From NCBI GenBank assembly GCA_051294905.1, contig CM119372.1, positions 9,364,001 to 9,428,000 of the forward strand: DNA of 64,000 nt, read 5' to 3'. Positions 3,301-63,049 of this stretch are shown here, one piece after another; positions within the stretch are counted from its first letter, which is position 1, and every line of letters starts with the position of its first letter. The position numbers were made by a program, and so were the translations under genes. The notes under the pieces are model-generated. The model had not been told where the DNA came from. It ran no database searches and saw nothing but the letters and a program-made list of their open reading frames with translations. The DNA is from Botryllus schlosseri. Lineage: Eukaryota.

Positions 3301-6300
3301 ACCTGAAAGCAGGATGAGGGCATTCACCGAGCATGGTAGCGGTGATCTTGTGGTAGGTGCTGCGCAGGTTCAGCTTCAAGCCGTTTGGTGGTTCTGTGAC
3401 TACTTTGAGGGAACGCTGCAATATTCCGATTGGAAATTCAGGGATGGATTCTGTCGTCAGCCATAATCTGAAGGAAAGAACATTTCAAAATGTGAAATTC
3501 GCGGAGTGAGACGCGGCTGCGGGATCGCCTCCTTTGAAATTCGCGATTATGACATCACAAGAGCGCCAGCGCTTCATGCCGTACGGCTTTTCTCGATTTT
3601 ATGTTGGAAAAATGTAATATTTGAAGTCGGACCCAGAGGTGGTCAGTAACCAAGTACTTACTCTTTTCAAATCCTCGCCTACTTGTACTACTTACTCAAA
3701 CTGTTAGACTACTTTTACTTTTACTACACTTACTACTTACTACACTTTTGAATTTTGCAAAGAAGAAAGTAATTCTGAGATAAGTTTGCATCGCTGTAAT
3801 GATCCAATTCGTCGCGATAACTGGACGAAGTAGTCCCTATATCACGGCAACTGATGTATTCTCAGAATTGTACCTAATTGTGGTGTCATTTTGAGTTTGT
3901 GTTGATAAAGAACCGAGCGATTCAGGCAGTTGCCGCCACCGACTGATTGCTATAAGTATGCGATACAAGACCAAATCTACAATTGAATAGTATATTCATA
4001 TTGAAATGAACCCGAATATTTTCGGCTGACACTCGTCAGGGGTAATCGTCAGCAACTAGCATAGAATTGGAAAGAAGATTGTATATCAACAATCGTATCA
4101 CAAAATATGAGGTCACCAGCAGCAAGACCAAATCTACGTTTTAGAAACAACTCACTCGAGTATATTTCGGTCGTTCATTTTCTGCCTTGACATGTTTTGG
4201 AAATCTCTATTTCCACTCGTAATCGAGTAGAAACACTAAAGATTACTTCTACTTTTACTCAAGTACCAATGATGACTGCCGTCAAGCGAAAATTACAAGT
4301 TAAAAGCGATTATTCTCAAACCGCACCTAAAATCTGGATGCGGTTTCTGAATCCTTTCCAACGCTTTTTCCAAATCCTTGAGCCACTTCACGAGAAGATG
4401 GCAGTTTTGTAGCATGAGCCACTGTCCCCGGGCAATAGCAGTCTCTAGAAACTGCAGCGCCACCTTCTCCTGACCCTGACCCATGGCCAGAAACTTCAAA
4501 CGGTTACCGCCGAATCCAGACCTGCGAATTTGCAATGAAGGGCAATGTAATTTGGAGCCTCAAAGTACCATCAGCAGCGCCAACCTTTCCGCCAATTTCA
4601 GCAGGTCGGAAGCCGGGTCCGATCCGGGGCTCAGGATGAAGACGATGGGTGAAAACGGCGTGCTCTGCTCGTAGATGGACTCGAAGCTGATGATCGGGGG
4701 TTGGACGTAGATCTCGCCCACAGTCTTGATGACGTAGTTGGTGATGGCGCGAATCACGCGGTCCACGCGGAAACATCTGGATATGGAGATATTTTTTTTT
4801 AATACAGTAAAACACCTGTTTTTAATTCATTTTACATTTAAATATATATATCTTCAGAAATAGCAATAGTTTACCAAATATCATACCAATACTACGTCAA
4901 AGATTTCCCATTGATTATCTCTCATTGTGATATCATAGGAGTGTGGATGATTAGAAAATCTCAAATATGTACGGTACCTTTTATGTGACCACAAAGAATA
5001 TACTGCTAGTTGTCCACCACTGAAATGTCATTTACACAAACTTGCAAAGTTTTTTACCACAAATGTTTTGGTAGTAAGTAGCAAAAAGTAGCGAAACTAT
5101 AATTTTCTTACCGCAAAGGATCATATAATTTGAGTCCTCGAAAAATCTTCACTCACTACTCGACCCGAATTCCTATCCCACTTAAATACTTTATTCAGAT
5201 TCAAGCGCTTAAATGACTGTGCCCAGCCCCATCATTAAGCGATGGAGGGATGGAAGAGATCAGCTCTTCTTAAAAATACGAAGATTTACACAAAAACACA
5301 TACCGTAAAAGAATGAGTCGGTCGAAATCCTTCAGCTTTTCCTCATATTTTCCAGGGAACGAAATCGATTCCGGGCTGTCGTGATCGAACCACTCCTTCC
5401 AAACGCGTTCGTTACGCTCGATATCGTCCGGCAGAGACGAGAATATATCGGGGGACATGTTCGCCAATTCGATGACGTCCTGCCAGCCCTGGTCCGGAAT
5501 CCAATCGAAAGGCTTGCGGCGACTATAACGACATGATCGAAAAGCTATTAGTAAGGAATATCGATTTCACTTTGCACCAATGCTTGAGACTATATTCGGA
5601 ATATATCCTGATGACATTCGACGAAGTAATACCTCCATTTCAAGAGAATGTATTCCCAGCATCTGTATCAGTCAAATTAACATTCGATAGGACTATCATG
5701 ATAACACGTACTTGCAGTGAGAAATATGGAAAATTGAGTGTTACGTGGTTAACAGACTGGTATTTGCGTGAAGGATAAAAATAATATACACATTCGATTT
5801 TGTAAAAGGTTCAACATACACAATATGCCATGGGTGCGTTAAACAATAAAATCAGTCTGGACTTGGCATCTGTGTCTACGAGACGGGCCGCCATGGTATG
5901 TCGAGCTAACCAGGCAGTTCAGTAACTTGAAGCCCGGTTTGTTGAGGAAAATTATGCGGTGCAGCAGAACAGCATACACAAGGAATCTCCTGGAGTCAGA
6001 TTATAACAATTTCAGAAATATGGCAGCCGGCAACAGTCAAATGATCATCGACAACATCACGACGAGCAACCAATTGCGTACTAGATCATCATTCGACTGC
6101 ATGGATGCAGAATAGAAGAGAAATTGAGGAGACATATCAAAAGCACGCCATCACCTGCTCTTTTCGAGGGCGATATTTCCCTTGTAGAAGAAGTCCAATT
6201 CTTCCTGCTTGATCTGTCCCTGATCTTGAACCAGCTTGATTGTCATTTGGAACGAGAAGAGTAGCTTGTGCTTTTCAAAGAGACCTGACGTTCAGAACGG

Positions 6301-9300
6301 AATTAGCAATGTGAGTATCGGGTCTATCGAATCTGTCGGATCACCATGATAGACCAGATGCTGAATGATTATATATTGACAATAGGAGGTGGTTTGTAAT
6401 GAAGTAGTCCCATCTTTTTGGAAATGCATGTGAGTTTACCGACTGCAATGCTTACATGAGTGATACTGTTTTAGATTACTTCTACTATTACAGTAGCTCT
6501 TCAATTTTGTAAACTACAAAAAGCTATTGGATAGATTCTCAACGCTTTTGAGATTGAAATTGCTACTAGAAAATCAAACATCTGCATCACAATCGTGACA
6601 TATAACTTAAATATCACAATCTGACATATCGAACTCGCCTACCGACACATGCAGCATTCATTTTTATCGCTTCCTTCTATGTTATCCTTTCTCTTGTCCA
6701 GTGTGCATGCCACTTATTGTGGGTGTCTGATTAAAAGACTATTTTAAGTCATTTTCGCACCCTCCTATCTTTTCATTATATCGAAATCGTGAGGTGGATT
6801 GATTTGATGAAAATTTTACTGAAATGATAATGATAATTCATAAAAACGAAAGCTATTCAGCGTCAGTCACTGATTGTGTACTGCAAGTTGGCGTGGTTTA
6901 TTGCAAAATAAAAGTCCTACATCGCTGTTTCTTTACAAAAAAGCCCAGAGAATGACCCGATGAAAGACGAGTGCAAGGAAGAGAATGGAAAGAGCGAGGA
7001 AACGTCAAAAAGAGAGACAGCCGAAATATCAGGTTTGAAGACGGTTACATCAGGCATTAATTCGAGTGATACCAATAGGTTGAGGTGGATGTTAGATTGA
7101 TAGACTTTACTTAGCCGTTTCGACATCCTATCTGTTCGTTACATCGCATTGTGTCTCCCGTGTGACATCATAAATTGTATGTCTTAGGCAGATTAAAATC
7201 ATAGAACATCTGGTTTTGATCATGATTATGGAAGTCAGAATTAAGTTTTTTACGTCGGTTTACGTGAGTACTTAGAAAAATACGGTTGTCGGCTGCATTT
7301 CGACATACTTTCAGCCTGCCGATTACTCGACTGGCACTAGAACTTCGCAGGGTAGCTTCTACTTCAATAGCAGTGACGAATACATCGACTTTATCCAAAG
7401 CACTTATCAAGCCCACAGCAATCAACACCCGACCTGTGCAAGCGTAGTTGTAGATGTTGTGAGTCAGCGTGTCGATGATGTACTTCAGGCGCTTGTTGAG
7501 ATTCGCGTCCGGCAGGCTTTTACGCAACGAGAAGTCGAACACGTCCAGGAACGAAGCCAGCGAGAACTGGTACATGTTGTTGATGATGGCCATTTCCGAG
7601 AGGACGAAAAACAAAATGGCGCCGCGACGGGCCGCGGGACGGTATCTGAAGAAACGGGTCGTGATTGCATACAAGAGGAGGTCAAATTATCTCGCAATAT
7701 ATTACACAGCTTATACACTCACCCATCTCTGAGTTTATCGATGTCAACAGCGGTGACGGCAGCGAGTTTCAGCTTTTCCGTCACTTCTGTGGCCTTAGAT
7801 TTTGTCTCTTCCAGTGTTTCGATCAGCTCGGTGTTGTCCAACATGTTGCCTGTAACGCAAAGATGGCATATAGTATAAAATTTGTCGCAATATTCAGGAA
7901 AGTGGAACTGAAGAAAAACTAAGGTTCCATCACGTTCAGTGAGTTGTTATCAGCACTTTTAATCTGCCTGGAATCTGTTGTACCAAGTCGATTGGCTAAA
8001 ACGTGGCAAAGGCTGTTGAAGAAGTGCCAATTGTGCGTGGACAGGTGAAATGGGTTTCTCAGTGTGCTACATTTAAGAGCTAAGGTCAGGTGGACTAACA
8101 GAATGGCCAACAGAGCTGTAAAATCACAGAAACACGCATATACTGACTCTGCATGGAGGGTTTTGAGATAGAAAACGCACACGACACAACGCGCAATTTC
8201 CTGTCAGGCATTAAAGGTTGTTGTGCATGGACCGTTACCGAATTTTATAGATAAGTTTCGTCATGACATTTACCAATTCCTAATGACACAGTGGGTCTCA
8301 CCATTACTACTGGAAAGTATAAGAGCTACCCATTGCTTATGTATACCCGGTCTATTGCCAAAAAGGTTCCACAGCAATCCGGTGAGAGACAGCCTTTAGT
8401 TACAGTAACATTCACGAGCGTGAATCAAGTCATACGCGGACCAAAGCAGCACCTTTAGAAGTGGCAAGCTCTCTCAGGAGAGAATCTTCCAAGTCTTTTA
8501 GCAACTTTTTATTTTCTGACGTCTCCTGAATGAGACGCTCACGCTGCTCTTCCAGCTCTTTCCTCTCAAACTTGACAATAACGGAAAGCAACTGATCTGA
8601 AGTAGTTTGAAAGGGAATTTTTAAAAATTGATATCAACTCGATGGTTTATAATCGCAAATCGTAAACACCTCACCTTCCAGCCCTTTCAAGGTGACGGTA
8701 TAGTTAATGACCATGGCTTTGCCAAACACAGCTGGTGAATATCGTGGATTGGCCAGCTTGCTGGTCAAGTACAGCTTGAAATTCGAGTCGTAGTCCACCT
8801 CCTTGTCGCCTGTAGAATCAGCTCGATTAAGTCGAAGGAAAACTATGATTTAAGTCGATCTGAGCCAAGGTAAGTACACGCATGGGATGTTTAACGCACA
8901 TTTTCAATTTGAAATTAACGATACTCTGCTTTATAAGACAATCTTGGAGGTAGAGAACTTGAATATTCAGTTGAATAATATATGTTCATATTGATATAAA
9001 CCCAAATATTTTCGGCTGACACTCGTCAGGGGTAATCGTCAGCGACTAGTAGACAATTCAAAAACAATTTGTATATCAACACTCGTATCACCAAATATAA
9101 CTCTGATTTCTACTATTGTGTTGTAATTACAGTTCTGATATTACCGAGCATGACAAACTCGCGTCCCGCGTCGCCCTTGATGTTTTTCTCCAAAACATTG
9201 TCGATGACCGGGTCGATGTACTCGTCAACGTCCTTGAACAGGAAGGGAAACCCGTACTTGATGGCCAGTTCGAGTTGCTTCAAAAAGTCCGGGCTGTTGA

Positions 9301-15300: not shown

Positions 15301-18300
15301 TGTAGGTCAGTGACGAAAGCGTCGTGTTGTCATGACAAAATCGTTCACGCGTCTCCGGGTGAAGGCGAAAAAAATCTGGCAACGGTATTTCGGAAAATGA
15401 CGTCTGAAAATCGATACTCGACTAAGTGACAAGAATTGACGCGCACTTAAGGTTGAGCATCGATCTGCACTTAGTTGAGTAGAGAATCGCAGTTGAGTAC
15501 TACTTTGTTAAGGAGAAGAATTGGCCTCAGCCCTAAGATATCGTACTTTATTTGCAAATTATATTACCATCCTTTTAACGTGCACATTTCAATGAAGTAG
15601 ACTAATTTCCAGCTAATCCGTGTCATATCTTTTTTGTTAACTGGCGATGTCTTTATCCGAACTTTACCATGGGCCCTAGTGGAGATGGAAACGAGTGGAA
15701 CAAGCATCCCCGCCCCTTCCGGCGTTACTGGAATACGATTTTTGGCCATGTCGAGTGACGAAATTTGCCACCGTAAATGCTACTATTTCCAACTCGGCAT
15801 CTACTGGTTGGAATTTAGCCAAACGATTAGGTAACCTAACGATTTGACAACTAAGCCGATGAAATTTGAAAAACATGTTTTTTTTAACCTGATATCGTAG
15901 ATTTTGGAGTAGTCAAAGAGCGTTACTACCGGCAGCAGTCCAACACATAATGCAATATTGTAGCTTTGATTTGAATAAAGATAAATAGAGTATCAGTGGA
16001 ACCTAAAGTGGCAGGGAGAGTAAGGCAGCGGAACAGATCATACCGCTGCGACAATAGCTTTTTTAGCGGCGCTTGGGAGGTTTGAAGCATCAGCAACCAG
16101 GATGGAATGCGGATATCAAAGCAGCAACAAAACCAGTTATTTGAAGAGCTTCTTGGAGGTAAATTTTAGTGTATTCATTCTTAGTTACACAAAGATGAAC
16201 GAGATGAACCAAATATTATGACAAAATCCTACCTTGTTTTGCTCCTCAATTTCCAGAGCCTTGGCGGAAGCGAGTTCTTTCTTTTCCACGGCGACCACTC
16301 GCTTTGAGGTGATGTCTTCCAGGAGTTCTTCGCAAGCTTTCGTTTTTTCGGTAACAGCAACCTATTGCAAAATCACATTTGAACGAAGGGAGCATTTGAA
16401 ACGATATTCATTTAGTTTTAGTAGAAGATCAAAGTCGATCAAGGACTAATATAGAACGGCGGGTTGGTAATTCAGGCTCAGTCGGGCACACATACGGAGA
16501 AATATTGTCCAAGCTGCTATATTATGTCCCAAATTAGGCCTGACATGTCAGCACTTCGAACCTAGCATTCCAATTTCAGTTGAGTTGGAATTAAAATCAC
16601 GAATCAAATATATCTCATATACTCAAATATATTAAGACGCCTGTGGCTGTGAACTATGATCTCACAAAGTATGAGCGTCATCTCTGCTATTTTAATGCCA
16701 AACACACAGAACCTTTGGTCATGATGCTACTGTTTATTGAGGTATCGTTCATTATAGATTAAAACCAACATAAGTCAAGATATGCTTACCTTTTGCACAG
16801 CAAGCTTTTTATTCAGCTCCTCCAATTGCTCGGAAGCTTCCGATAGCTTCATGAGACCGCCCTCCAATCTCTCGCACATTTTTAAGATCTCCTGATCTTT
16901 CTTGTCGAGCAATCCGTTGTAGCTGGAACGATATCACGTATTTTACTGCTTGTGACAGTATATATGCTCTGCGGTTTTATGCAAAGTGCAGCTTACAAGT
17001 ACCGTACGTGAAATGTGCGATCAAATCATATTGCATACAATGCTTTAAATTTCACCTGGTAATGAAATCCAAATAATTCTTCGGCGTCACGTAGTTGTTT
17101 CTTCGGAGTTTTTGTGCAAAAAGAGTGCTGTAATTGCCCACCGACTGATGGACAAACACGATATGTGCTACCACCTAGCAAAATATTCACACAATAAAAC
17201 GATTGAAAAGTATATTCATATTGAAATGAACCCGAATATTTTCGGCTGACACTCGTCAGGGGTAATCGTCAGCAACTAGTAGAGAATTGGGAAGAACATT
17301 GTATATCAACAATCGTATCACAAAATATGACGTCACCAGCATGAAATTTCGAATGAGAGAGCGATAACGAAAGGAAGGACTCGAATTGACTTGGTGAAGT
17401 CAATCGATCAAACTCCCACCTTAGCCTACAAATATCATAACAAAAATAGATGAATCTGTTAAAAAGAAGCATGCACACTGCACAGTTGCACACTCCATGA
17501 GAAATAGTCAACAGAATATTTGAAAAATGGGCAGGCGTTGATGAGGCATGTTACACGCCGGGGTTCAGACTTCACGTGAGGTTGTTGCGTCTAAATCGAT
17601 CCGGCAATCTCAACACGCACACTGGCATTTATCCACCAGAAACCACCCCAAACTGCTGTATTCAACGCAATATCCTACCTGATCAACATGCTCTTCTGGG
17701 ACCATTTGATTTTCCGACAGGAACGAAGTGGCAACCGCGTACAAAGCCTGCTCGGGCCAGGGCATGAACCAGTCGATGACCGTATTGTTGACCATGCCAG
17801 GGAAGTTTCTACATCTGATCCTCAGCAAATCACCGACGGGCGACATGGCAAGCACGATGTGCAGGTTGTCTCGGCATTTGCTGACGAAAAACTGCCAGAT
17901 AGCCTCTTTCGCTGGGCCGAATCTGAAACGTAAACAGCCAATCACTGACGCGTACCTACCTATTTGTTGTCACATTATTCATTCTGCATCAGTCGTGAAG
18001 ATACATCTTGCTATTTCAAAAGTAGCCACCTTCAATGCTAAAAGTATGGGCCACCTCAACCTAATCTACTTTTAGAAACATATTACTGAAATACTATTCA
18101 TACCATCTATTTTCCAGTTCCACTTGAAGTAGCCTTGAGATGTCTTCTGAATCACTACAACTTTGAATTGAGTAGAGATCTATAGCATTACCTATACCTC
18201 TACCTGAGAAGCAACACCGACTAGTTCAACAACCTCAGGTTTAATCTCATCAATGGCAATGTCTTCTAAATGTCGCAAAGTCAACAAAACTTGAATTTTG

Positions 18301-45300: not shown

Positions 45301-48300
45301 ATGAGAAAATGTTAAAAATCATAAAGAGACACGCAGTTGAATATTGCAATATCGTCGCAAAATAGCTCGAATCGAACCTTTCTTGAATGTCGGCGATTTG
45401 CATTTCCACATCCAACGACATGAGTTTGATGTTGGCGATTACGCCGAGCACAAATTTCAAGTCTTCCAAAGTGTCGGGAGATCTTTGCAAATCTTTTGTC
45501 ATTTGATCCTGAAACACCCGACAACTACGTAAGTCTCTACCTATAGAGCCCAAAAACCTATACGTGTGCATGTATGTATTTTATTTAACGGTTGAAAGAG
45601 ATGAACAAAATAATAAAGATAACGATAACGTATATATAACAAAAACAAAAAACACTGAGTAAGACGGCTACTAATACCCCAGAGAAATCTAACCAGATTT
45701 ACATCCATTATAATTTTCTTTACCAAAAAGTGGCAAATTTTATAATGTAGAGTATTCCCAATATTCACCAGAAGTACAGTAAGCAATGTATGAGTGCACA
45801 ATACTCGATAGACAGCTAGCACCCACAACAAATTTCCACTTGGTCATATAAACCCGGTGAGTTCCATATATACTAGCGGGCATTGCAAGCAAATCCCAAT
45901 ACTTGGGGAATGACAAATAGTTTTCTTTCGAAATCATAACTGTATACCAAAACGATAAGGTCACATTATTATATATTATAACAGTTGGATCCAAGTGACT
46001 CAACACATGTCATGACTCAATTTGTTGTGTGGTCTCCAGACTACAACCTGAGACAAATACCCGTTGCTAAGTTATTTACCTTCCTGTACACAAAGACCAT
46101 GAATATTATACATCTGCAAATACAGGATCACATACCAATCACAAGCAGATAGGAGGAATCATAAACTCGTGCTAGCAAAGATTTGATCTTACCAAATTCT
46201 CTTTCAGCTGATACAAGGATTCCATGGCAGACTCTTTAAGCAATTTTCCGAGCTCCTCCACCCATTTACCTGCGTGATCTTTCACGGTGATAGCCAACGG
46301 TTGCAGGTTCAATCTGATGCACATTTCGTCCTGGCATTCAAATACACGGATTAAAATCGAGTAAAACATATCCAAAACACTCCTAATCCGCTCTTTGAAA
46401 GAATGTATTCACTAACGCTACTCGAAGTCACATACCTTTATCATGGGCTGCTGGGTGACCTCGTCCATAATTCTCGAGTAAAACTGTAACTTGTCGTCAT
46501 AGGCGACACACGAAGGACTTTTGGCGGCGAATTTCTCCATGACAATGGTTTTGTCCAGTTTCCACAACGGCCTGTATCGCTTCCACTTTGCTAAAAATGG
46601 GAACGTGCAAATGCAGTATTACTAGATAGAATGACCTATCAATACAAGTAGACTTAGATAATGAGAGGTGATTAAAGTAGTGAGCATTGCTACTCAAGAA
46701 GCAGTAGAAGTAAAGCCATTAATTACTACGCAACTACACGAGCACCTCTGTCACTGATAAATATTGCTCCGAGCAGTGCACTCGCGGCTCGTAATTATCT
46801 GGGTTGGGGTCCTCCCACTAAAAGGCGGATGGAGAAAAATACTCACCCATGCTTCTCGTGAGACTCGTCAGCAGTCTTTGTACGTTGCTGCGAATGCTGC
46901 TGATAACCTCTCCGATTCGCGGAATATGACGCACATCGTCGAAGAAAGTCAACATGACTGGCTCGTCATCAGTGTCCAATTGCTGGGGCGGCGTCTCAAT
47001 GCACGTTCCTAGAATAAAGTCAGTGAAGCGTTAATCGCGCAAAAGTTTATAGCGTGATTTACGCCAAACGTCAAGTATACAAATCCAATATAATCTCGCG
47101 AGACCTACATGCAAGGATGCAATTCAGACAATGACAGGGTTTTCCTGCCAGCAAAGATAAAATTCACTGTGTAGGTTGTCATATCTGAGAGCATCACAAT
47201 ATTAGGTCAAGTTGGTTAATGAATCTTAGCGACTAACGCAAAATGATTAATGACATTATGCACAGGCAGAATCTTCGGAAATATCTTCAGTTACCATGAT
47301 ACAGCAGCTATTTTTCCAGATGTTCTCACAATTTTATTCATAAAATCGATGCAAACGTATACCCAAACTACTACCAACGTTACAAAATAAAAATCGCTAT
47401 AAATGGGTAGTCAGGTATTCAGTATTTAGGTACTACGAGCATGTACTTTGATACTGACCAACTCTGGTATTGTGCATACAATAATTATATATTGCCTATC
47501 TGGGGTCATGAAAGGGTCTGGGGTGGCAGACAAAAAGATTTCGTAAATCCTTGGTTTAAACGAGCAGGTGATGTAGTCAGATGGTCGAAATAATTTGACT
47601 TTGAAATCCAGCTGTTTATACATCCACTCCCGGAAGGTGTTTACTTGATATATTCGGCGATAATCTCGGCATGCAACAGTACTTACCATTCATCCACCGT
47701 ACAAAGTACTTCGACGACATCACGCAGTCGCGTAACGACTGCTCCAACAATTTGTATACTTCGGTAGCTGACGGGTGCAGCACAATCTCCGGCGATGACA
47801 AAATGGCCTCCATTTGAAAGCAGGCTTTGTTGGTAGCAAGAACTGAAATTGTAAAAGTACTCATGACCGGATATCGACACTGGTGATACATTTCCAGCCT
47901 GAAGAATACAGAAGTAATTTTCATTGTTTTCAATAGCAAATTCCTTACTTCGATTAAAATCCGAAAGGTTCCGAACGACCATGTTGCCCAGACTGTCGAA
48001 AATTCTTTGCTCCCAGTATTCGTAATACTTTGCGAGCTGCTTGGACCGGCCCGAGTTGGTGTGCGCGACGAGCCCCTCCATTTTCGTGAGAAGGGGTCCG
48101 ATGGCCCGATATTTTCTCGACAAAATATCCAAATCTTTGATACGCTCGCTTTCCACGAATTCAAGATAGTCCTGTTGGTAATTATAGTTGAGATAAGAGT
48201 GGAGCGAGTTGCAAAATTGATTTGAGATATAGCAAAAATGGACGCGAATTATTACTTTCATTTGTCGATTAGGAATGAAAAATGTTCCAGAAGTCGCAAA

Positions 48301-51300
48301 TCTCTACACTCTCAGGACTTACCTTGACGCTGGGTAAGTATCCACCAACTTTAGGAGGATAAGGCTTGAAAAGGTTTAGATTTTCAATGAGCTGAATCCT
48401 GCTATCGATATCCCTGGCGTTCTTCTGAATCTGATTGACGAGCGATTCGAATTTGCCAATTGCTGTTTCGCATCGGCTGATATAATCCTGCAAAAGACAG
48501 GAAACGTAGCATTGAGTGCCACGAATCAAAGGTGTAAACTCTGGTAAATTCCCTTACCGGGGTACCCAATGAATTCCAATTCAGTCGCCTGTATCCTGGT
48601 CGCAAAACTCTCTTGAGCTCGAGTATATGATCCCCCAAAAGTTGCATCTGTGGGGAAATATAATGTTAAAATCATGCTAGAGAGGTCACTGTAATGAGTG
48701 TTTCAAAGCTTTTTGCTGAGGATTTTCCAGACATAGATTCATCTACAAACATTTCAATTAGGTAGTTACATATCACGATCAATGTGTAAATGAGTCACAA
48801 TTGCAATTGTAATATGACATTTTGATGGTGAAGCTGGTCAAGACGTAAGTACAGGCTTTGGAAGTAAAATCACACAAACAAACAAAAATTGAACATTGGC
48901 AATGTTGGTATATCTAATCGTTGAAGTTCTTAGCCCTACCTCTGCGGGCTCCAGTGTGTCGAGAAGTGTGTGGTATCTGTTGAGCATGTGTTTCAGTCCG
49001 TTGATGTATTTGAAGTATTTGTCCTCCTGTGGAATGATGCGGCAAAAATTAGTAAGCAAATTTGCAGCTGACATTCTACAGAGCCGCAGAAGTGACAGAA
49101 CGTTGCGTTCATCCATATATAGCAATTTGTCTTCAAGAGCACTGGATAATATCAATTCTACGAGACGCAAAGTTACTTGGCAATCTCTTATCAACCTTTG
49201 CACTGCCTAGTATGCTGGATAAAAACCAGGCCCATCTCCAAATTATTGATTATAATGGCCAAGATATGGCCGAAAGAAACTGAAAACTTTACAAAAACTT
49301 GATTATCTCAAAATGTGTAAAATGAACATAAGCAACTTTGATTCCATAGCGACTCAATAATTCCTGTCTTATCAGTACGTGGCGGCGGCCATTCTGCTCA
49401 TTTTCAAAAATAAAAGTAAAGTCGCAAGCGATCAATCGTACTTGAAGAGCCACGTTTCTCGCACTATCAGGAACCATGAAGCCGAGTTGCTCCATGTATT
49501 TCGTCTCGCTCGTAATCTCTTGGGCTTCGGGAGCATAGTTTACGACGTACTCTTCAGTTCTGCCTTCAACTGAGAAAAAAGAATTATATAGCATCGCTGT
49601 ATAATTCATCGTATTACTGACGTTCACTACTGATGAGAGTCAGTCAAACATATTTTAGTGAATGAATTAACGGATTAACAGAAATCAACTCTTAGAGGTA
49701 CAGAACTTATATATATACAATTGAATAATATATTCATATTGAAATATGACCCGAATCTTTTTGCCTGATTGTCAGGGTTAATCATCAGCAACAAGTAGAG
49801 AACTGAAAATAACATTGCATATCAACAACCGTATCGTCAAATACAATGTAACCGGCATGAAAATTGAAGTAATCGAGGCGAAAAGATGGCTGAAGCTCAA
49901 TGTACTATTTATCGATTAAATACAAACTCCTTCTGTTGGGGCAAACTGGGTTGGCAAATTTCGATGAAAATCGACTCCAAGGCGTAGAAATAAAAGAATG
50001 TGACGCGAAATATGCCGTCTCGATTATTAAATGCTTGCCAATGGCCGGTGACGTCATATTTTGTTATATGATTTTCGACATAGAATATTCTTTTCAATTC
50101 TCAACTAGCTACTGACGATTAGCCCACACGAATGTCAGCCGAAAATATTAGGGTTTATTTCAATATGCATACCGTATATTATTAAATAACAATATGAAGG
50201 TGATGTTTCGTGTGGTCCTACCTTTGTTCGGTGACGACCGACTTTCTTCGATCGTCTCGACATGTTCCGACGAATGATTTTGTGTCGCAGACCCGGAACT
50301 GCTCAAGTCTGAAATAAGAGAGAGAGACAGAGATTAGAAAGACCCATTTTTTGCCAATTTTGCGAGCGTGCGTTTCCACGCGCGTGGCCTGCCTTGAATA
50401 ACGTTGGACGCCGTCGGCAACGCCAGCAGGTTGCGCTTCATATACCCCGGCAGCGACGATTCCACGGCTTCGTTCCAAAGTTTGTACTTTTGGTCTTCGT
50501 AGTCCTTCATGGCTTTCGCCAGGTTCAAGTACGCCGTCTTGGCCTGCGTGTACCGGTGACTAATTTTATTTCAGGAAATTGCACCTATTTGCAGCATCGT
50601 TTGTCGTTTTGCGTTACTTGCAAAGAGGCATCCATCACCCCCGAATAACTGCTAAAAGTATGTCACTAACTCAAGCAATTTTGAGACCTTCATTTCCTAC
50701 TTCTACTCGAAGCAATTTTGACATGCCTTGAATATCCTTACTTCTATCTACATTTGAGTAGAACTTTACAACGTTGCTTCTACTTTTGCTAACAATAACG
50801 TCCCCTGTATAACTCATATTGCCAGACATTTACAACGTCGCGATGTATGACTGTCGTACAGATTGATAAACGGGCAAACAATTCGACTCACGCTTTTGCC
50901 TGCCTCCGTGTTGAGCATCTCCTCGGCCGACTGAAATCTTATGATGGTGTGCTTGATACGTTGGAACAACGATCTCTCCCACGCGATAGCCCCTGCGGTA
51001 GGGGGCTGATTTTTAGCCAGAGGCGGGTCGTCTTTTCCGCTTTCGAAAAGCGAACGTATGATTTCGACCTGAACGTGAAGGAAAAATATTCAGATGGAGA
51101 GACAGAATTGTTTTAGATCGACAAAACATATGTTGTTAGTGATATTCACTGTGCTTTTCGACTGCACTGGTCATTTACACCAGGCCGATTTTCTTTATTT
51201 TGATTCCGTAACTGCTGACGAGCAGCATAGCTCACTTCTAGGCTTTTTCAAGACACCGCTTGCTCGTATCAGATGGCAATAAGAAGTCTAGATAAACCTC

Positions 51301-54300
51301 CAATACTCAGCTAGGAATATTGTAGTCAACCTCGGTTGGACTCGAACCCATAACCCATTGGTGTTGCAGCTGTGGATCATACCACTACGCAATCTCGCCA
51401 CTCAGATATTATGAATACAAGTTAGGCCAAAGTGTATACCAATGCAGAACAACGTTGTAGCAAAAGGATCGGGACATGATTAAGTCTGCCACATCCTGAA
51501 TGAAGTATTGTTGCATTATATGCGACAGTGCTCACATTAGACTAACATGAAAATTCATGATAGAAACTCAGAATAAGACAACACTAGTCAAATACCGTAA
51601 TAAAGAAGAAATTAGTAAGGGAACTAGAAAACCTTTAACAGCACCCAGTAACAGGTCAAAAGGCACGTGATATAAAGGCAAGACAAAGGATTAAGTTGAA
51701 TTCAATCAATTTCAGTCAGATTTTTTCGGTCGCGCTTTAGTGAGCTCGGTGTGTGCCTAAAAAAACGTTCAAATATCTGCCCGCCTCTTTCATGTACTGC
51801 GCCAGGATGTCGTTGAACTTCTGCATCATTTGAGCGTTGATCGATTCTCGCGAGCGGATGTGCTTGAACTTCAAGAGCATGTCGAAAGCGCCTTCGGCGG
51901 ACCGTAGCGTTTTGAAAGACTCGTCGATGAAGCGTTTCGCTTCGCCTGAAAAATCGGCGCGCTTGTAGACTCGTAGTAATGGGAAACGGCGAACAATAAA
52001 TCTAAATTTTTTAATATTTAAACGAATATTTAATTTCAGACAGTTGAGGTAAGTCGCGATCGGCAAATCGAGAAAAATCTTTGTCACAGTGGAACACGGA
52101 TAAGATCTTCGCATCGCAAAACTATTTTCCTAAGCAATCGTTACCTGTTTTGTACCCCAACCATATCGAGCCGGATATGCGACAACTGATATCACATCGT
52201 ACAGCACACTCTTACGGCTGGGTTTTTAGACTACTTCTACTTCTAACAGTTTTACTCACTTTTTACAATTCGGATTTTAAAAGCAGAAAGTAGGCTACTT
52301 GTGGGATAGGTTTGCATACTTTTCATCAGTGAAACTGTCATAAGAACAGCGTTGAAACAGCCACAGCATCATGGCAACTGAATATATTTTAGAAGATCCC
52401 GAGTAGTATCATCAGTCATGTTGCGTTGGTCCCAAAGATATATGTCGAAATTTCGAAAGTAGCCACCTCCGTTCGTGTAACTACTATACAACCCCTCGAC
52501 CAAATCTACGTTTTTAAACTACGTATTCCTTCCATTCCGGCCATTCATTATCTACTTCCACTTGAAATAGTTTTCAAATGTCTCAGAAATAGCAATTTCT
52601 TGTTGTACGGTACATTGACCAACTCTACATGTGACTTATCATATTTCCATGGATCGTAGTCAGGAGAAAATAGCCGCTACGTACCTTCAATAGCCTGGAC
52701 TTCCCGTTCGAACCATTGCATGACGGATTTCCACATGCTCAGCGATTTCAGATCGAACGGATCGACGGTGATGTTCTCGATGGGCTTCACTAAACCGTCA
52801 ACGCGCACCAGCACGTCTTCGATACGTTTCGGATCGCCAGTAACAGCTTTCAATTCGGGACCGAAAATGTTGTAGAACTCTTGCAAGACCTAAATTTGGA
52901 ATGATGATAAATTTTGAATCGAGCGATGCGGCAGAAGTAGGGAATGTCTGGTTGTTTCTGGACGGATGTCGGATATCATCATGCTGATACACCCAACAGG
53001 CCTGGAAATGCCCGCATATTCAATGATAGCCCCCCATGGTGCCTTTGCGCTTATCGACATACAACCTTTAATGGATTTTCAGTAGTATTCCTCTATTAAC
53101 ACCAAATTTTCACCACCTGACATGTAGCGTTGGGTAAAGTTTTGAGATATGAGCAAAGATTTGAGTCGAGTATTCGACTATCAATCATTAGGCTATCATA
53201 TCGTAGTGCTATGGGTGATTCAGAAAATGCAAATAAATATGTATCCTTATGTGACCATAAAATACGACGGCCATTTATACACCGCATTAAAGGTGATTTG
53301 GTATTTTTTCGGTCAATTTCATAGATCTTTGAAACAAAATACTGGTTAACCACTGCTTCAGAAAAGGGTGGTTTGTGCTAAATGTTTTGTATGCTGTAAT
53401 ACAGCTGATAATGGTTTAAAATAGGGGTAACTAACTCAAAATTGGCCAATTTTCCAAGAGGGCCAGAGGGCCAATTCGCCAAATTGGTAGGCGCCGCCGG
53501 CTATGACATAGTTGTATCGAAAGGCAGCACGAGACTGCAAAGTCACTCAATACACCGTTTCCACATCCTGCTTTCATCCAGTATATATCCCGACGGTCTA
53601 CATGCGGGCCACAAGTTAGTGTTCCCTGCTCTAAAGGCTACCACGGTGATAAGAAAGTATTGTAATGGTAATTTCAGGACTTGACAATATTGTCTCTCAC
53701 TACCAGATTGGAAGTGAATAGTATATTCATATTGAAATGAACTCGAATATTTTCGGCTGACACTCACCAGGGGCAATCGTCAGCGACTAGTAGATAATTG
53801 GAAAGAATATTGTATATCAGCAATCTTATCACAAAATATGCCGTCACCGGCATGAAAAATCCTACTTTGCGATTCTTGCGTTAGAACACTAGGGCAAATT
53901 TTAGCTGTCACTTCTAAGTATCTGGCATAACCGATCAGCTTCGTAGCAGCTGGAAAACCAGGATCTTGGAATCCAAATTCCAACCAGCTTCAATCAAAAA
54001 TCTACAAACCTGAGCCACGTCGGTCAAGTCCTGGCAGATTTGAGCCATATAGTCGGTGCGGTCGAACAACCTCTTCCTGTCGAATTCCCATCTCGCATCT
54101 CTGCCGGAGGCTTCGATTTTCGCGCGCACCTCAAAATAAGTGCTCTTCCACAGTAGAAGCATGTGCTTGGCCTCTTGCGTCAATGCCTTGATCTGAACGA
54201 AAACAAAGATTAAGATTGGCTGGTGGTAGCATAACCACAACACGTGGGCATTGTTAATACTTGATAACAATCCGACAAAGTACAGAGTCAGAAGCCTAAT

Positions 54301-57300
54301 GTTGGATGTAAAAGGGGCATACGGCACAACTACAAACCCGGAAGGGAGTGTTCGAAATCGACAGCTATGCCGATAAGTAATTTTGACAATCACTCATTTG
54401 CCATTTGCAGCACAAAAACTCATAATTACATCAAACAAGAACCCTTCGTAGGGTAATATTTATTAACTAAAACCTTTTCAACTGACTCTCATCAATTGTA
54501 AAGGTCAGTGATATGTCAATTCAAATTTGTATTGTAGCAAAGAATTTGACTCATGGTTCTTTATTTACTATTGCTACATCGCAAAGATTAAATTCTTACT
54601 ATGCTACATCGCAATTCAAGAAGCTTTTTGTCAACATCTTGTACAATATCAAGTTATTGTCATGATATCCTTTTATCGGTTCACATATATTTCCTACTAA
54701 GGAGTATTGAAGCCTGCTGTAAGTAGCATTACATGATCAGGTGTTTCGTGGAAAATTGTTCGGACGTTGATGACTCTGGTAACGCGCTCCGCCAATTCCC
54801 AAGCAATTCTCTCCATAAGAGGCACCATCCTTTCGTCCTTATTGTAATGCCTGCAATGACAAAATGCGACATCTCTCAATTTCAATTTAGTCTCTTCAAA
54901 TAAGATGTGCGTGTGATGATGTTAATTACCTGTACGGCACAGGTTAATTTCATGATCAGACTTGGATAGTAGTACCATATACGACTAAACAAATAATTGT
55001 CGCAAAACTATAATTGCACATTCAATCCGAAGGGGCTGTAGTACAAAACGATACCGATAAGTACTTCAGAATCAGGACAGCATAGGTTCAGAGACCCAAC
55101 CCAAAGCGAGATAATCCAATCTCCTGAAATTAGATACGTAGATTATATTCTGCGTTCGTATTAAGTTTCCGCGATGCTTTCCGTCACACTATCCTGCTCC
55201 CTCTACAATGGTCACTAACACATCCCCAGCTCCATTAAAGAGACAATGCCCGGTCTTACCGCGAAATAATCCACACCATCCTCAAAGCATTCATCATCGA
55301 CGGTATCGTTTCGACGACAACATTGAAATTCGATCCGTGAGCCAGATTCTGAATTCAGACAGTAACGAACTTTGAAACATGATAAGCCGAGTCTTGTAGA
55401 AGATTTTGTAACAAAATAAAGCAAAACCTGTGGAATGTAAAGCTACTCGGCACCTAATACGGTGATGATACGATCAGTCAACGTCATAACTTAAATAAGT
55501 ACAGCATACAGCGCATGTAAGGAATGGCATCTGTGACATGAAAAATTGTTCTATGGTTGCTTTGTGTCATTTATGATTGAATCATACTGTTGCCCAACAT
55601 ATAAATAGATTTATAACACATTACTATTTCTATGTAGCCGAACAATAATAAAACACTCAGATATGATAAATAATAACTTATCTGTAATCAATTTTCCCAA
55701 TTTGCGGATTTGTTATGTTGACACGTTTTGTTAGCATGCGTACCTGCGAACTTGGATGTGAGCGGGTGGATTAGATACCAAGCAATTTTGAGTCATCGTT
55801 ATGGAAATCGCTCGTACTAATGAACACGAGCCACTGATTGTAACTCCTTTAGTAAAGAATTTAATCAATCTCTCTAAATAACGCATGTCAAACTCAATCT
55901 GGCTGGATTCAAACCCTTGATCTCTTGGCTTGGCCGGACCAGTTTTCCTTTCAGTGAGACTCTTAATTATTATGCATGTACATTGTACATACTATGTGAT
56001 ATTACAGATGGCTGGGGCTCAATTCTAACGGCACCGTTATTCGCATACAATATACAATGATCGGCCGATTAAAGACAGTCATAATCCACCAAAACAGGAA
56101 CCAATAACTACGACAATATTAGTTACCATATTTCTATTACGTCTTCGTTTCGTTCCTATTAGCGCTGCATACGCGGAATAGAAGAGATTAGATTAAAATG
56201 GCGGTGACTAGTGTGAAGACGCGACATTGCCGCCAGACGATTATAATGAGGCGTTTTCGACATTTGCGGAGCGATTATTACCTCAAAAGAGTATTTCTTA
56301 TTAAAGATTTTAACTTTAAAAGAAATGTGTTGGATGATACTAGCACGTAGCACTTTTTGATTTATCAAGTATTACGTTTGTTTGTGTCGATTATTATCGA
56401 TTATCACGTCGGATGCTTACCTTGAAATGTCGCTCGAGAGTGGTGAGAAACCTGACGTTGTCTTTCGCTTCTGTGTAATACTTGGTTAGCTCGTCGCGTG
56501 CCATTTTGAAATTGGCCAATGCGGTCGCGTCGGTCTTTTCCCCGAGAATGTCGAGCATTTTGACGACTTGCGGAAGCTTCAATTGTTCGCTCAGCGCGCT
56601 CAGTGCGGCGTTTCTTTCCCTCCAAAAGTCGATTTCGGCCAACGGCCCGTTGCCCTGGAGCGTTACGAGATAAGATAACGGCGTTCGAAATGTAATAGCA
56701 AACTACGTAGGTAGGTAGGAGTAGCAATCAGAAAGTTTGAAATTCCACTGTCAAGTTGAAGTAGCCTTAGAAGTTTGATATGGCACATCACGAAATTTGT
56801 TTTTCTGGTATGCAATAGCTTTCGAGCAAGATATTTCACCAAGGATATTGGAGAGTGACTGATAGTGTTACGAATAGAACTAAATTCAAACCTATATTCA
56901 ATGGTAATGATTCAAGGCCAATTTTATATATTTGTTATATATTTCAGGTGTTACAAATGATGCTAACCTATCCGAATACGATTTTCTAAATGAATAAAGT
57001 TAGAAAATGAAGAAAAATGAAGTTAAGGCTGTGGTCCACAAACGAAGCCTACTTCCAGAATGCCTAGCAAATCAGATTGTGGACATACCTGTGGCTTCTT
57101 TTTCAACTGCTGGTCGATCGCGGTAGCGATCTGTTGCTGCCAATTGCCGCTGACTTGCTTTATGCGGTCGACAAGTTCTTTATTCTTGGCTAGTTCAGCG
57201 ACTTCTCCTTCCAAAGGTAATTCCGGGACATCCAGACGTATCTCACCTGAATGGTGCCATACCCATTGTTAGTAAGAATGCGTGGCATTAACCTTCAAAA

Positions 57301-62360: not shown

Positions 62361-63049
62361 CCGTAATTTTCCATGTATAATGCGCAATATTTTCACGACT
62401 TTTTGCCCTAAAATAGGGGGGTGCGTATTATACATGGGAACAGCAGGCCTTGAAAAAAATCTCCCTCCATAAAAAACTTGAAATCACACCTATCTTCATG
62501 TTTGTTTCCAAACGCGCATCACTTTCAGCCATCGCGCGTAGTAATTTGTATTATAGAGTGTAACGCGCTGCCAATTAACGAGAGTCGTGTGCACAAGCAC
62601 GCGATCTCCTGCTGAGTTGGTTTGCCGTTTGTACGCGAGCGCAATTAGGTCACTAATGGACACTCGCGCGCGGCAATTCTCGCCAATTCATCGCTTCAAC
62701 GACAGGCCCGAACAATCGCATATGCAATTTATACGTATACAAGAGGCCATGTGCGCAAGATATAATCGCTTGCGTAATCAGTCTCATCTCCAACAGACCT
62801 GTTGCGCATGACATAACCGTTGGCCTATGCGCAATCGCATCTGTAATAGGCATCGTGCGCAAGATGTCGGTTCGTTGTCGCTACCCTGAACTATCGCGCA
62901 GAATGACATCGTATACGAAATCGGAACTATTCATGTACTGAAATGCAGGGTGCGTACTATACATGGGTACAGGCTTTTTCCCAGAATTTACATGCTATTT
63001 TAGGGGTGCGTATTATATATGGGGGCGTACTATACTTGGAAAATTACAG
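62361..63049 (+). mobile_element. pogo/Tc2-like (Tc1/mariner superfamily) MITE, uninterrupted
   Basis: TIRs CCGTAATTTTCCATGTATA / TATACTTGGAAAATTACAG, TA on both sides, GGGTGCGTATTATA subterminal repeats. Confidence 0.85.

What the first reader, a model, noticed from the sequence alone, without database searches (positions are those of the whole stretch)
3981..54510. Dispersed non-coding repeat family encoding minimal type I hammerhead ribozymes, ~15 copies inside one dynein gene
Seen: a ~140-200 bp repeat occurs at about 3981, 8940, 17202, 23697, 27858, 28460, 28655, 35074 (x2), 37202, 44913, 49614, 49690 (x2), 53715 and 54465. One strand reads stemI-CUGANGA-G(loop)C-GAA-palindrome-H-stemI'. 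Three subfamilies keep the pairing with different bases: stem I ACCC:GGGU, CGCUC:GAGUG or CACUA:UAGUG, and stem III palindrome AAUAUU or AAGCUU. Established: CUGANGA/GAAA/UH is the hammerhead core, and minimal type I hammerheads with a tiny palindromic stem III are characteristic of Penelope-like retroelements and retrozymes and cleave as dimers. Inference: this is a non-autonomous ribozyme-bearing retroelement family. No RT/GIY-YIG ORF is present in the window. I cannot tell whether this family is already catalogued.
Basis: partly seen in the sequence, partly recalled or inferred. Interest (0 to 1): 0.9.

Follow-up and report, generated by a model that had tools for sequence, protein, structure and literature searches.

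The report
Penelope retroelement ends with pseudoknot hammerhead
The repeats scattered through this dynein gene are cut-short tail ends of an abundant Penelope-like jumping gene, and their hammerhead-ribozyme motif appears to replace one of its usual hairpins with a pairing to a short upstream stretch.

Summary
The CUGANGA...GAAA...H motif with covarying stem I and palindromic stem III is real.

These are not a separate non-autonomous or retrozyme family. They are 5'-truncated 3' ends of an autonomous Penelope-like element (PLE). That element has an 860-codon RT plus C-terminal endonuclease frame and forms 2,692-bp tandem units. A first-look search of this 495-Mb genome gave at least 9,841 candidates. 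The copies show the PLE insertion signature: variable 5' ends, head-to-head inverted pairs, an optional ~30-nt tail at one end, and target duplications of 8-15 bp.

Six of its loop bases pair with a box 3-5 nt upstream of stem I. This pairing covaries across eight sequence variants in this genome and four metagenomic lineages. It replaces the 6-8-bp hairpin helix II found in more distant PLEs. The closest known form is the solved pseudoknot hammerhead, but this one lacks helix IV and keeps the PLE dimer-type stem III.

Cleavage is untested. No Rfam hammerhead model matches, and RNA-seq shows no pile-up of ends at the predicted cut. I found no published description, but two key papers could not be read.

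The parts
3981..4122 (-). 5'-truncated 3' end of the PLE (unit positions about 24-171). It is flanked by the 15-bp target duplication CAAGACCAAATCTAC (3966-3980 and 4123-4137).
4010..4053 (-). Intact hammerhead-like motif. Read in the sense direction: upstream box GCUGAC (4053-4048), linker GAUU, stem I ACCC (4043-4040), CUGACGA (4039-4033), G10.1 (4032), U (4031), GUCAGC (4030-4025), C11.1 (4024), GAAA (4023-4020), AUAUU (4019-4015), C17 (4014), GGGU (4013-4010). Predicted cut is 4014|4013.
8942..9101 (-). PLE 3'-end fragment with part of the tail. Both core boxes are intact (9010-9029).
17199..17363 (-). PLE 3'-end fragment, 97% identical to the unit. Core intact (17240-17259).
23698..23875 (-). 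PLE fragment that reaches about 25 nt into the coding end. Core mutated.
27858..27935 (-). Decayed fragment of the AAGCUU subfamily, with a short tandem expansion inside the loop region.
28460..28500 (-). Decayed fragment.
28657..28825 (.). Head-to-head inverted pair of truncated ends (28657-28763 sense minus, 28764-28825 sense plus).
35060..35240 (.). Inverted pair of the CGCUC/AAGCUU subfamily, with motifs at 35088-35144 (minus) and 35167-35223 (plus). Upstream box ACUGAC, loop GUCAGU or GUCAGC.
37199..37347 (-). Fragment that carries the ~30-nt tail. Core mutated.
44907..45139 (.). Inverted pair: a tail-bearing short arm (44907-44989) and a longer arm (44987-45139). A 9-bp shared flank TACAAAAAT is present.
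49610..49666 (+). Fragment of the CACUA/UAGUG subfamily. GAAA reads AAAC.
49690..50171 (.). Inverted pair of a more diverged subfamily. The left arm runs into the coding end, and an endonuclease remnant is found by tblastn at about 49900-50100.
53717..53857 (-). PLE 3'-end fragment. Core has CUGGUGA.
54459..54515 (-). Decayed fragment (UUGAUGA core, upstream box ACUGAC, loop GUCAGU).
27394..54393 (-). Context: exons of an axonemal dynein heavy-chain gene on the minus strand (27394-27759, 33116-33577, 51740-52129, 53938-54393). The gene probably continues below 27394.

Best explanation
The repeats are dead-on-arrival, 5'-truncated 3' ends of an autonomous, recently active Penelope-like element (PLE) with a C-terminal GIY-YIG-type endonuclease. 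They entered introns of the dynein gene by target-primed reverse transcription. That part is shown (about 0.95).

Each fragment carries the element's junction region. In tandem copies this region lies between the stop codon of one frame and the start codon of the next.

The region encodes a type I hammerhead-like RNA. It has a conserved core, a 4-6-bp stem I, a single G10.1-C11.1 pair and a 6-8-nt palindrome in place of stem III. The 7-nt 'loop II' forms a 6-bp pseudoknot with a box 3-5 nt 5' of stem I, reached by a 1-nt crossing. This pseudoknot takes the place of helix II. The fold is inferred from covariation (about 0.7).

The likely mechanism is inferred and not shown (about 0.5). In multimeric or paired transcripts, two motifs join through the palindrome and each cuts after H17. 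In the main family the cut is UUC^GGGU, 14 nt before the ORF's AUG. That would release unit-length RNA.

Reverse transcription starts further 3', at two alternative sites about 35 and 68 nt beyond the cut. This gives the two observed 3' ends, without and with the tail.

Most copies in the window have since lost core bases and are inert.
For: PLE identity.
- A head-to-head pair of 357-codon frames, ending in an endonuclease-like motif, sits directly upstream of the repeat.
- Identical 860-codon frames lie in 2,692-bp tandem units.
- RVT_1 matches at E 7.8e-9.
- 843 homologous proteins were found, with precomputed PF00078 and, in two clusters, PF01541.
- The genome search with the 357-aa piece gave 9,841 first-look candidates. 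114 were scored, giving 121 matches at up to 99% identity (100% to itself), most of them over 303 residues at 94-97%.
- The 147-nt end alone gave 949 candidates.

Insertion signature.
- 5' ends are variable.
- Of 8 inverted pairs examined, one arm carries a ~30-nt extension. At least 5 of the 8 have flanking duplications of 8-13 bp, judged by eye.
- Exact shared flanks occur in 2 of 9 window units.
- This matches the published PLE pattern of an inverted 5'-truncated copy plus a 30-40-bp tail at one end (PMC8557442 and PMC11167929, passages).
- RNA-seq loose ends cluster at about 2970-2975 and 3008-3018 of L063, which are the two 3' ends.

Hammerhead.
- In 19 aligned motifs, U4, G5, A6, G8, A9, G10.1, A13 and A14 are invariant. 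A15.1 is kept in at least 90%.
- G10.1-C11.1 forms a standard pair in 18 of 19 sequences.
- Overall, 85.3% of cells are paired, against 68.3 +/- 1.8 in shuffles (0 of 500 reach it) and 24-38% with slid partners.
- The covariation score is 0.400, against 0.161 in shuffles (0 of 500) and 0.02-0.10 slid.
- Stem I has 4 of 5 pairs with changes on both sides. The pseudoknot has 5 of 6.

Pseudoknot variants (upstream box / loop).
- GCUGAC/GUCAGC, ACUGAC/GUCAGU, ACUGGC/GCCAGU, UCUGGC/GCCAGA and ACUGGU/ACCAGU.
- UCCGAC/GUCGGA, UCUGAC/GUCAGA, UGACGC/GCGUCA and GCAUU/AAUGC.

Enrichment. Genome-wide, the motif with N7 = A or G occurs 437 times against 9 for the reversed pattern. One subfamily, read with its downstream part, occurs 197 times against 0.

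Distribution. All 9 metagenome loci whose matched coding end has at least 38% identity to this PLE over the last 130 residues, and more than 200 nt downstream, carry the short pseudoknot form. Loci with 44% or lower best-segment identity carry the classical hairpin form: 26 hits, of which 18 are C3-G8 and 8 are U3-A8.

Precedent. The solved pseudoknot hammerhead has helix II replaced by a 6-bp pseudoknot closed by G10.1-C11.1, and it is fast (PMC11300833, passages). Linking the distal ends of stems I and II by about 3 nt is compatible with activity (PMC10085705, passages).
Against: No Rfam hammerhead family matches, neither at gathering scores nor at E<=10, even on an 81-nt stretch.

Nested minimum-energy folds are no better than shuffles (z -0.8, -1.5, -0.8, +0.06). 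For the main family, the minimum-energy fold pairs CUGAC of the core with GUCAG of the loop, which is an inactive alternative.

Bulk and single-cell RNA reads cross the predicted cut (L063 2942|2943) with no drop in depth, and no place shows a pile-up of ends (tables 2 and 6). Ordinary libraries capture such ends poorly, and 96% of the bulk reads come from fragments embedded in other transcripts.

One sister lineage has U at core position 3 opposite G8 in all 10 copies seen with an intact G8. This could weaken catalysis.

Published PLE hammerheads cleave poorly in vitro (PMC4209133, whole main text read). Catalytic mutants did not affect insertion in vitro (PMC11167929, passages).

L079 and L098 fit the pseudoknot only after a shift of register, which I judged by eye. 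In one search they count as unpaired.

The sequences are related, so the shuffle control overstates significance. The slid control is the fairer one.
Confidence: 0.7

Rival explanations
1. The motif is a conserved RNA structure of the PLE 3' end or junction, for example a binding or positioning site for the element's reverse transcriptase. It keeps hammerhead-like bases but no longer self-cleaves to any useful degree.
For: No read ends at the predicted cut. U3 opposite G8 in a whole sister lineage. No Rfam match. Helix II reduced to one base pair. In vitro insertion of another PLE did not need the ribozyme, and RNA-seq there showed no cleavage ends either (PMC11167929, passages). Naiad PLEs thrive without canonical hammerheads (PMC8557442, passages).
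Against: The invariant positions are exactly the catalytic ones. H17 is never G in intact copies. Positions 3 and 8 vary as a pair: C-G, U.G and U-A. The same architecture, with helix II as a pseudoknot, is catalytically fast in a solved hammerhead.
Confidence: 0.22
2. One reading: an independent non-autonomous, retrozyme-like family of about 140-200 bp that is mobilised in trans.
For: Many copies are short and non-coding. The window has no RT frame. Animal retrozymes have been proposed to derive from PLE pLTRs (bioRxiv 10.64898/2026.07.22.740005, abstract only).
Against: 5' ends are variable, not fixed. Two window copies and many genomic copies run on into the coding end. The sequence is 95-97% identical to the junction of intact 860-codon elements. 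No head-to-tail arrays of the short unit were seen in the window.
Confidence: 0.05
3. A foldback or MITE-type DNA transposon with ~147-bp terminal inverted repeats.
For: Inverted pairs of 374-594 bp with flanking duplications.
Against: The ends are asymmetric, with the tail on one arm only. Duplication length varies from 8 to 15 bp. The inner ends of the arms vary. Arms can be hundreds of codons of PLE coding sequence. Solo arms with their own duplications exist.
Confidence: 0.02

Closest known systems
[quoted passage not shown]
   Same: Location at the unit junction or pLTR of a PLE. Type I topology. Short stem I (4-6 bp). G10.1-C11.1. Stem III reduced to a palindrome, which implies dimers. 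Many solo copies, and pairs on opposite strands 100-700 bp apart.
   Different: Their consensus has a 6-8-bp hairpin helix II preceded by one unpaired base. All 56 motifs in their supplementary figure S3 are of that form, and the supplement text holds 'pseudoknot' 0 times. Here helix II is one base pair plus a 7-nt loop that pairs with a box upstream of stem I.
Pseudoknot-containing (PK) hammerhead (Weinberg et al. 2015, not readable here; crystal structure Zhan et al. 2024, PMC11300833)
   Same: Helix II is replaced by a 6-bp pseudoknot formed by the loop closed by G10.1-C11.1. The partner strand is joined to helix I by a short linker. The core is unchanged.
   Different: In the solved form the partner is the loop of an extra hairpin (helix IV), whose stem binds the AUA linker, and stem III is a full helix. 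Here the partner is a plain single strand 3-5 nt from stem I, there is no room for helix IV, stem III is the dimer-type palindrome, and the host is a retrotransposon.
Non-circular hammerhead permutations, types SGC and CSG (PMC10085705)
   Same: Pseudoknotted hammerhead cores. The distal ends of stems I and II are joined by about 3 nt.
   Different: Those types keep the block stem I 5' strand, CUGAnGA, stem II 5' strand uninterrupted. Here the 5' strand of the helix II equivalent lies upstream of stem I, so that block is split. This order is not among their six.
5'-truncated PLE insertions with an inverted copy and optional 30-40-bp tail (Craig et al. 2021, PMC8557442; Frangieh et al. 2024, PMC11167929)
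   Same: Inverted 5'-truncated copy, tail at one end only, tandem units, two alternative 3' ends, and an ORF start next to the ribozyme.
   Different: Nothing essential. This is a new family of that kind.

Membership tests
Penelope-like element, endonuclease-positive with C-terminal endonuclease | Reverse transcriptase domain in a single long frame | tested here: met
   860-codon frame. RVT_1 at E 7.8e-9, 36 bits, above the 29.6 cutoff. 843 homologues found, and nearly all of the 120 listed carry PF00078.
Penelope-like element, endonuclease-positive with C-terminal endonuclease | GIY-YIG endonuclease at the C-terminus | tested here: inconclusive
   Pfam GIY-YIG did not match our protein at E<=0.1. 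A ..YxYxCxC..YVGRT..H.. motif is seen by eye, and its Y, C, C, Y, G, T and H columns are invariant in 24 relatives. Two homologue clusters carry precomputed PF01541.
Penelope-like element, endonuclease-positive with C-terminal endonuclease | Partial tandems (pLTR), inverted 5'-truncated copies, and a 30-40-bp tail at one end | tested here: met
   2,692-bp tandem units. Head-to-head pairs. ~30-nt extension on one arm in 8 of 8 pairs examined.
Hammerhead ribozyme, type I | Core CUGANGA ... GAAA ... H in the right order, with conserved catalytic bases | tested here: met
   Invariant U4, G5, A6, G8, A9, A13 and A14 in 19 sequences. Position 3 is C, or U in one lineage.
Hammerhead ribozyme, type I | Stems I and III supported by covariation | tested here: met
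   Stem I has 4 of 5 pairs with changes on both sides. The palindrome has 2 of 3.
Hammerhead ribozyme, type I | Local hairpin helix II (as in Rfam models and the PLE min-HHR consensus) | tested here: not met
   Only G10.1-C11.1 plus 7 nt. No Rfam hammerhead hit.
Hammerhead ribozyme, type I | Site-specific self-cleavage after H17 | not testable with these tools
   RNA reads show no ends at the site. This is weak evidence either way.
PK hammerhead (Weinberg 2015 / Zhan 2024) | The loop closed by G10.1-C11.1 forms a ~6-bp pseudoknot that stands in for helix II | tested here: met
   6 pairs, 5 with changes on both sides, 86.8% of cells paired. Further variants.
PK hammerhead (Weinberg 2015 / Zhan 2024) | The pseudoknot partner is the loop of an extra hairpin (helix IV) joined to helix I | tested here: not met
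   Only 3-5 nt lie between the box and stem I, and the flanks do not pair.
Animal retrozyme / non-autonomous hammerhead element | Discrete non-coding unit with fixed ends, usually in tandem, with no continuity to a coding element | tested here: not met
   Variable 5' ends and continuity into the PLE coding end.

The most novel reading that the evidence does not exclude
An active clade of animal Penelope-like elements uses a hammerhead architecture that I could not find in the literature searched. In it, helix II is made by a pseudoknot between 'loop II' and a plain single strand just 5' of stem I, with no helix IV. This is combined with the dimer-type palindromic stem III. It would be a further natural re-wiring of the hammerhead, with the CUGANGA block split, present in thousands of genomic copies. 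Many of those copies lie in host introns in the sense orientation.
Probability: 0.45. Interest if true: 0.6.

Novelty: new variant of a known kind. Interest (0 to 1): 0.45.

Why it matters
Hammerheads in Penelope-like elements are well known, so the repeat family itself is an ordinary new member.

What may matter is the architecture. A whole clade of these elements seems to have swapped the hairpin helix II for a pseudoknot with an upstream strand. Descriptor searches and Rfam models that demand a hairpin helix II would then miss these ribozymes. Some PLEs reported as having only a 'hammerhead core' or no hammerhead might carry such forms.

It also gives a small natural system, about 45 nt, in which to test how much of the PK-hammerhead fold is needed. 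This genome offers many natural variants.

Tried and rejected
- Rfam at gathering scores, at E<=10 on the whole window, and on 81 nt gave no hammerhead family. The only hits were chance-level: mir-1270 at E 2.5 and two snoRNA fragments.
- A Pfam GIY-YIG search of the genome gave one hit only, a 298-codon frame, probably a host gene. It did not help find the element.
- A 2.3-kb stretch between two AAGCUU-subfamily arms (L064) held no PLE frame.
- I first took the 'fixed inner end' at query position 147 for a unit boundary. It was an artefact of the query's length.
- I considered and rejected a hammerhead built on the upstream CUGACGA box, because there is no G10.1-C11.1 and no stem.
None of the 12 window arms does; the nearest starts 7 nt upstream.
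- Sequencing runs: no holder is on record as RNA. Raw RNA runs of the same species label were laid instead.
- Host taxon: the dynein exon is 88-90% identical to both frog and coral proteins, so it does not resolve the host.
- Lunse et al. 2017 and Weinberg et al. 2015 are not held.
- No protein-complex or structure prediction was needed.

Full report
THE OBSERVATION

The window is G000:C2:9364001-9428000 of a 495.5-Mb eukaryotic assembly. A ~140-nt repeat is dispersed through it.
- blastn of 3941-4140 finds 14 rows on both strands, the self-match included.
- The repeat finder groups the copies in families D1-D3, D9 and D17.
In all there are 16 arms in 14 insertion units, plus three tail-only scraps.
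- On one strand each well-kept copy reads: stem I, CUGANGA, G, 7 nt, C, GAAA, palindrome, H, stem I'.
- The box pattern occurs 13 times against 3.8 +/- 2.0 expected (0 of 100 shuffles reach 13). Six of the 13 lie in the family, so most window copies have lost a box.

WHAT THE REPEAT IS

In the genome the 147-nt end has at least 949 first-look candidates. The 40 candidates scored gave 43 matches, of which 40 are near-full-length at 94-100% identity.

Many copies form head-to-head inverted pairs.
- In the 8 pairs examined, one arm carries an extra ~30 nt.
- At least 5 of the 8 have flanking duplications of 8-13 bp around the whole pair (by eye).

One pair, 1.9 kb apart, proved to be two inverted 357-codon frames. 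Each ends with an endonuclease-like motif 24 nt before the repeat.

Searching the genome with that frame gave 9,841 first-look candidates.
- 114 were scored, giving 121 matches.
- Open frames reach 860 codons.
- Head-to-tail arrays have a spacing of 2,692 bp.

A 6-kb piece of such an array (L063) holds identical 860-codon frames separated by about 110 nt.
- The frame matches RVT_1.
- It has 843 homologues, the best at 64% identity. The few source names given are 'hypothetical protein' or 'reverse transcriptase', and one names an octocoral.

The repeat is the junction of this element. It comprises the 3' UTR, the hammerhead-like motif, the ORF's start codon 14 nt after the predicted cut, and the first ~10-17 codons. 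The start codon is confirmed by the aligned N-termini of 24 relatives.

Laid against the unit, the window copies begin at positions 2, 11, 19, 24, 25, 34, 36, 53, 56 and 125, and two reach into the coding end. A 72-residue endonuclease remnant lies near 49900-50100.

These features are the published signature of Penelope-like elements (PMC8557442 and PMC11167929, passages):
- tandem units;
- inverted 5'-truncated copies;
- a 30-40-bp tail at one end;
- variable duplications;
- a ribozyme beside the ORF start.

The copy at 3981-4122 has a perfect 15-bp duplication.

A MITE reading fails on the same evidence.

THE MOTIF

No Rfam hammerhead model matches, even at E<=10 on 81 nt. The reason is helix II: only G10.1-C11.1 and a 7-nt loop.

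I fetched relatives of the protein from metagenome contigs (80 loci) and from genome records that hold eukaryotic contigs (27 loci). I then looked downstream of the coding end without assuming a motif.

The close relatives carry the same short form.
- These are all 9 loci with at least 38% identity over the last 130 residues and more than 200 nt of downstream sequence.
- They fall into four lineages: L065/L069, L079, L098, and a group of L066, L067, L068, L071, L085 and L128. L084 and L087, found by the motif scans, belong to the same group.
- The rest of their UTRs is not alignable to ours.

Distant relatives (best-segment identity 44% or less) carry the classical PLE min-HHR. That form has one unpaired base, a 4-7-bp hairpin helix II, GAAA, a CGU-type palindrome and H. 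There are 26 such hits, of which 18 have C3-G8 and 8 have U3-A8. This matches Cervera and de la Pena 2014, whose main text I read in full and whose supplement I searched.

THE PSEUDOKNOT

In every lineage of the short form, six loop bases are complementary to a box 3-5 nt upstream of stem I, and the sequences differ between lineages.

| Lineage | Upstream box / loop |
|---|---|
| Main family | GCUGAC/GUCAGC |
| Window subfamilies 2-4 | ACUGAC/GUCAGU |
| L065 | UCCGAC/GUCGGA |
| L066 group | UCUGAC/GUCAGA |
| L079 | UGACGC/GCGUCA |
| L098 | GCAUU/AAUGC |

A genome-wide pattern for motifs with A or G at N7 gave 437 matches against 9 for the reversed control. It revealed further subfamilies: ACUGGC/GCCAGU, UCUGGC/GCCAGA and ACUGGU/ACCAGU. 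Their stems I are CACUG/CAGUG or CACUC/GAGUG (197 matches against 0).

I tested the full structure on an alignment of 19 motifs, with results.

| Measure | Observed | Shuffled | Slid partners |
|---|---|---|---|
| Cells paired | 85.3% | 68.3 +/- 1.8 (0 of 500 reach it) | 24-38% |
| Covariation score | 0.400 | 0.161 (0 of 500) | 0.02-0.10 |

- The pseudoknot has 5 of 6 pairs with changes on both sides.
- Stem I has 4 of 5.
- The palindrome has 2 of 3.
- L079 and L098 are out of register in that alignment and count against the structure.
- The sequences are related, so the slid control is the fairer one.

The invariant columns are U4, G5, A6, G8, A9, G10.1, A13 and A14.

Positions 3 and 8 vary as a pair. 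They are C-G in most sequences, U.G in the L066 group, and U-A in one copy of that group and in 8 distant hairpin-type motifs.

HOW IT WOULD FOLD

The loop strand runs straight into C11.1, so the 6-bp helix stacks on G10.1-C11.1 where helix II should be.

G10.1 is joined to the far end of that helix by one base (U, A or G). From general knowledge of H-type pseudoknots, this is the usual length for crossing the deep groove of 6-7 bp; I did not compute it.

The box's 3' end lies at the distal end of the helix. It reaches the distal end of stem I through 3-5 nt.

This is the wiring of the solved PK hammerhead. [quoted passage not shown]

That form differs in two ways. Its partner strand is the loop of an extra hairpin (helix IV), and its stem III is long.

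Joining the distal ends of stems I and II by about 3 nt is also seen in the active SGC permutation (PMC10085705, passages). The order found here splits that paper's 'block C' and is not among its six types.

WHAT IS NOT SHOWN

Cleavage is not shown.
- Nested energy folds are unremarkable. For the main family they prefer an alternative in which the core pairs with the loop.
- RNA reads from one bulk and two single-cell runs of the same species label cover the terminal piece at 100-600x. They show almost nothing of the 5' part of the ORF.
- 96% of the bulk reads run on into unrelated flanks, so they come mostly from embedded fragments.
- No place shows a pile-up of ends, the predicted cut included.
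- Loose ends at about 2970-2975 and 3008-3018 mark the two 3' ends of insertions.
- Published PLE hammerheads are weak in vitro and were not needed for insertion in vitro.

NOVELTY

PLE hammerheads and PLE end fragments are known. Earlier notes of this scan describe like cases in other genomes.

I did not find a PLE hammerhead with a pseudoknot in place of helix II in any of these:
- the full-text searches;
- the Cervera supplement;
- passages of the reviews.

Lunse et al. 2017 and Weinberg et al. 2015, the most likely places for it, could not be read. I rate it a new variant of a known kind, of moderate interest.

Noticed in passing
window 3974-54515: Of 10 solo fragments, 9 have their sense strand (the hammerhead strand) on the minus strand, the same as the dynein gene. 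Only 49610-49666 is on the plus strand. The two-sided binomial is about 0.02, which is modest, and it was not tested genome-wide. The dynein pre-mRNA would thus carry several sense motifs in its introns, three of them with intact boxes.
   Followed up: partly
L066, L067, L068, L071, L085, L087, L128 (metagenome loci); L084: A sister PLE lineage has U at hammerhead position 3 opposite G8 in all 10 copies seen with an intact G8. One further copy (L084) reads U3-A8. This looks like a wobble intermediate between C3-G8 and the published U3-A8 core variant.
   Followed up: partly
L089, L099, L100, L114, L158, L162, L164: Distant PLE loci carry hairpin-type hammerheads with the U3-A8 core (UUGANAA). 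My first scan, which required G8, had missed them.
   Followed up: partly
window 24422-25871 vs 38697-40143: Several collinear repeat blocks (D4, D6, D10, D15), 82-87% identical and 14.27 kb apart. This is a ~1.4-kb duplicated segment or another transposon inside the gene.
   Followed up: no
window 30959-31402 vs 60393-60839; 38374-38566 vs 62362-62554; 40384-40471 vs 62739-62826: Further two-copy repeats at 82-90% identity, unrelated to the PLE ends.
   Followed up: no
window 17932-18051, 26196-26315, 42297-42416, 61217-61336 (also 1644, 52403): Another dispersed repeat family (D5/D8) of about 66-120 nt, at 61-80% identity.
   Followed up: no
window 18863-21229: Runs of a CGATTA-type hexamer repeat in three places.
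   Followed up: no
window 27895-27925: In one decayed fragment, the loop region of the motif has expanded into a short (CTGA/GTCA)n tandem run.
   Followed up: no
L063 2500-3300 (RNA reads): In the bulk RNA run, the 5' part of the element's ORF (3040-3300) has zero depth, while its 3' part has 5-25x and the terminal piece about 200x. Most signal therefore comes from truncated copies embedded in other transcripts.
   Followed up: partly
one search hit list: Many of the best protein relatives sit on assembled contigs of 2.6-3.1 kb, about one element unit. This is as expected if tandem PLE units collapse in assemblies.
   Followed up: no
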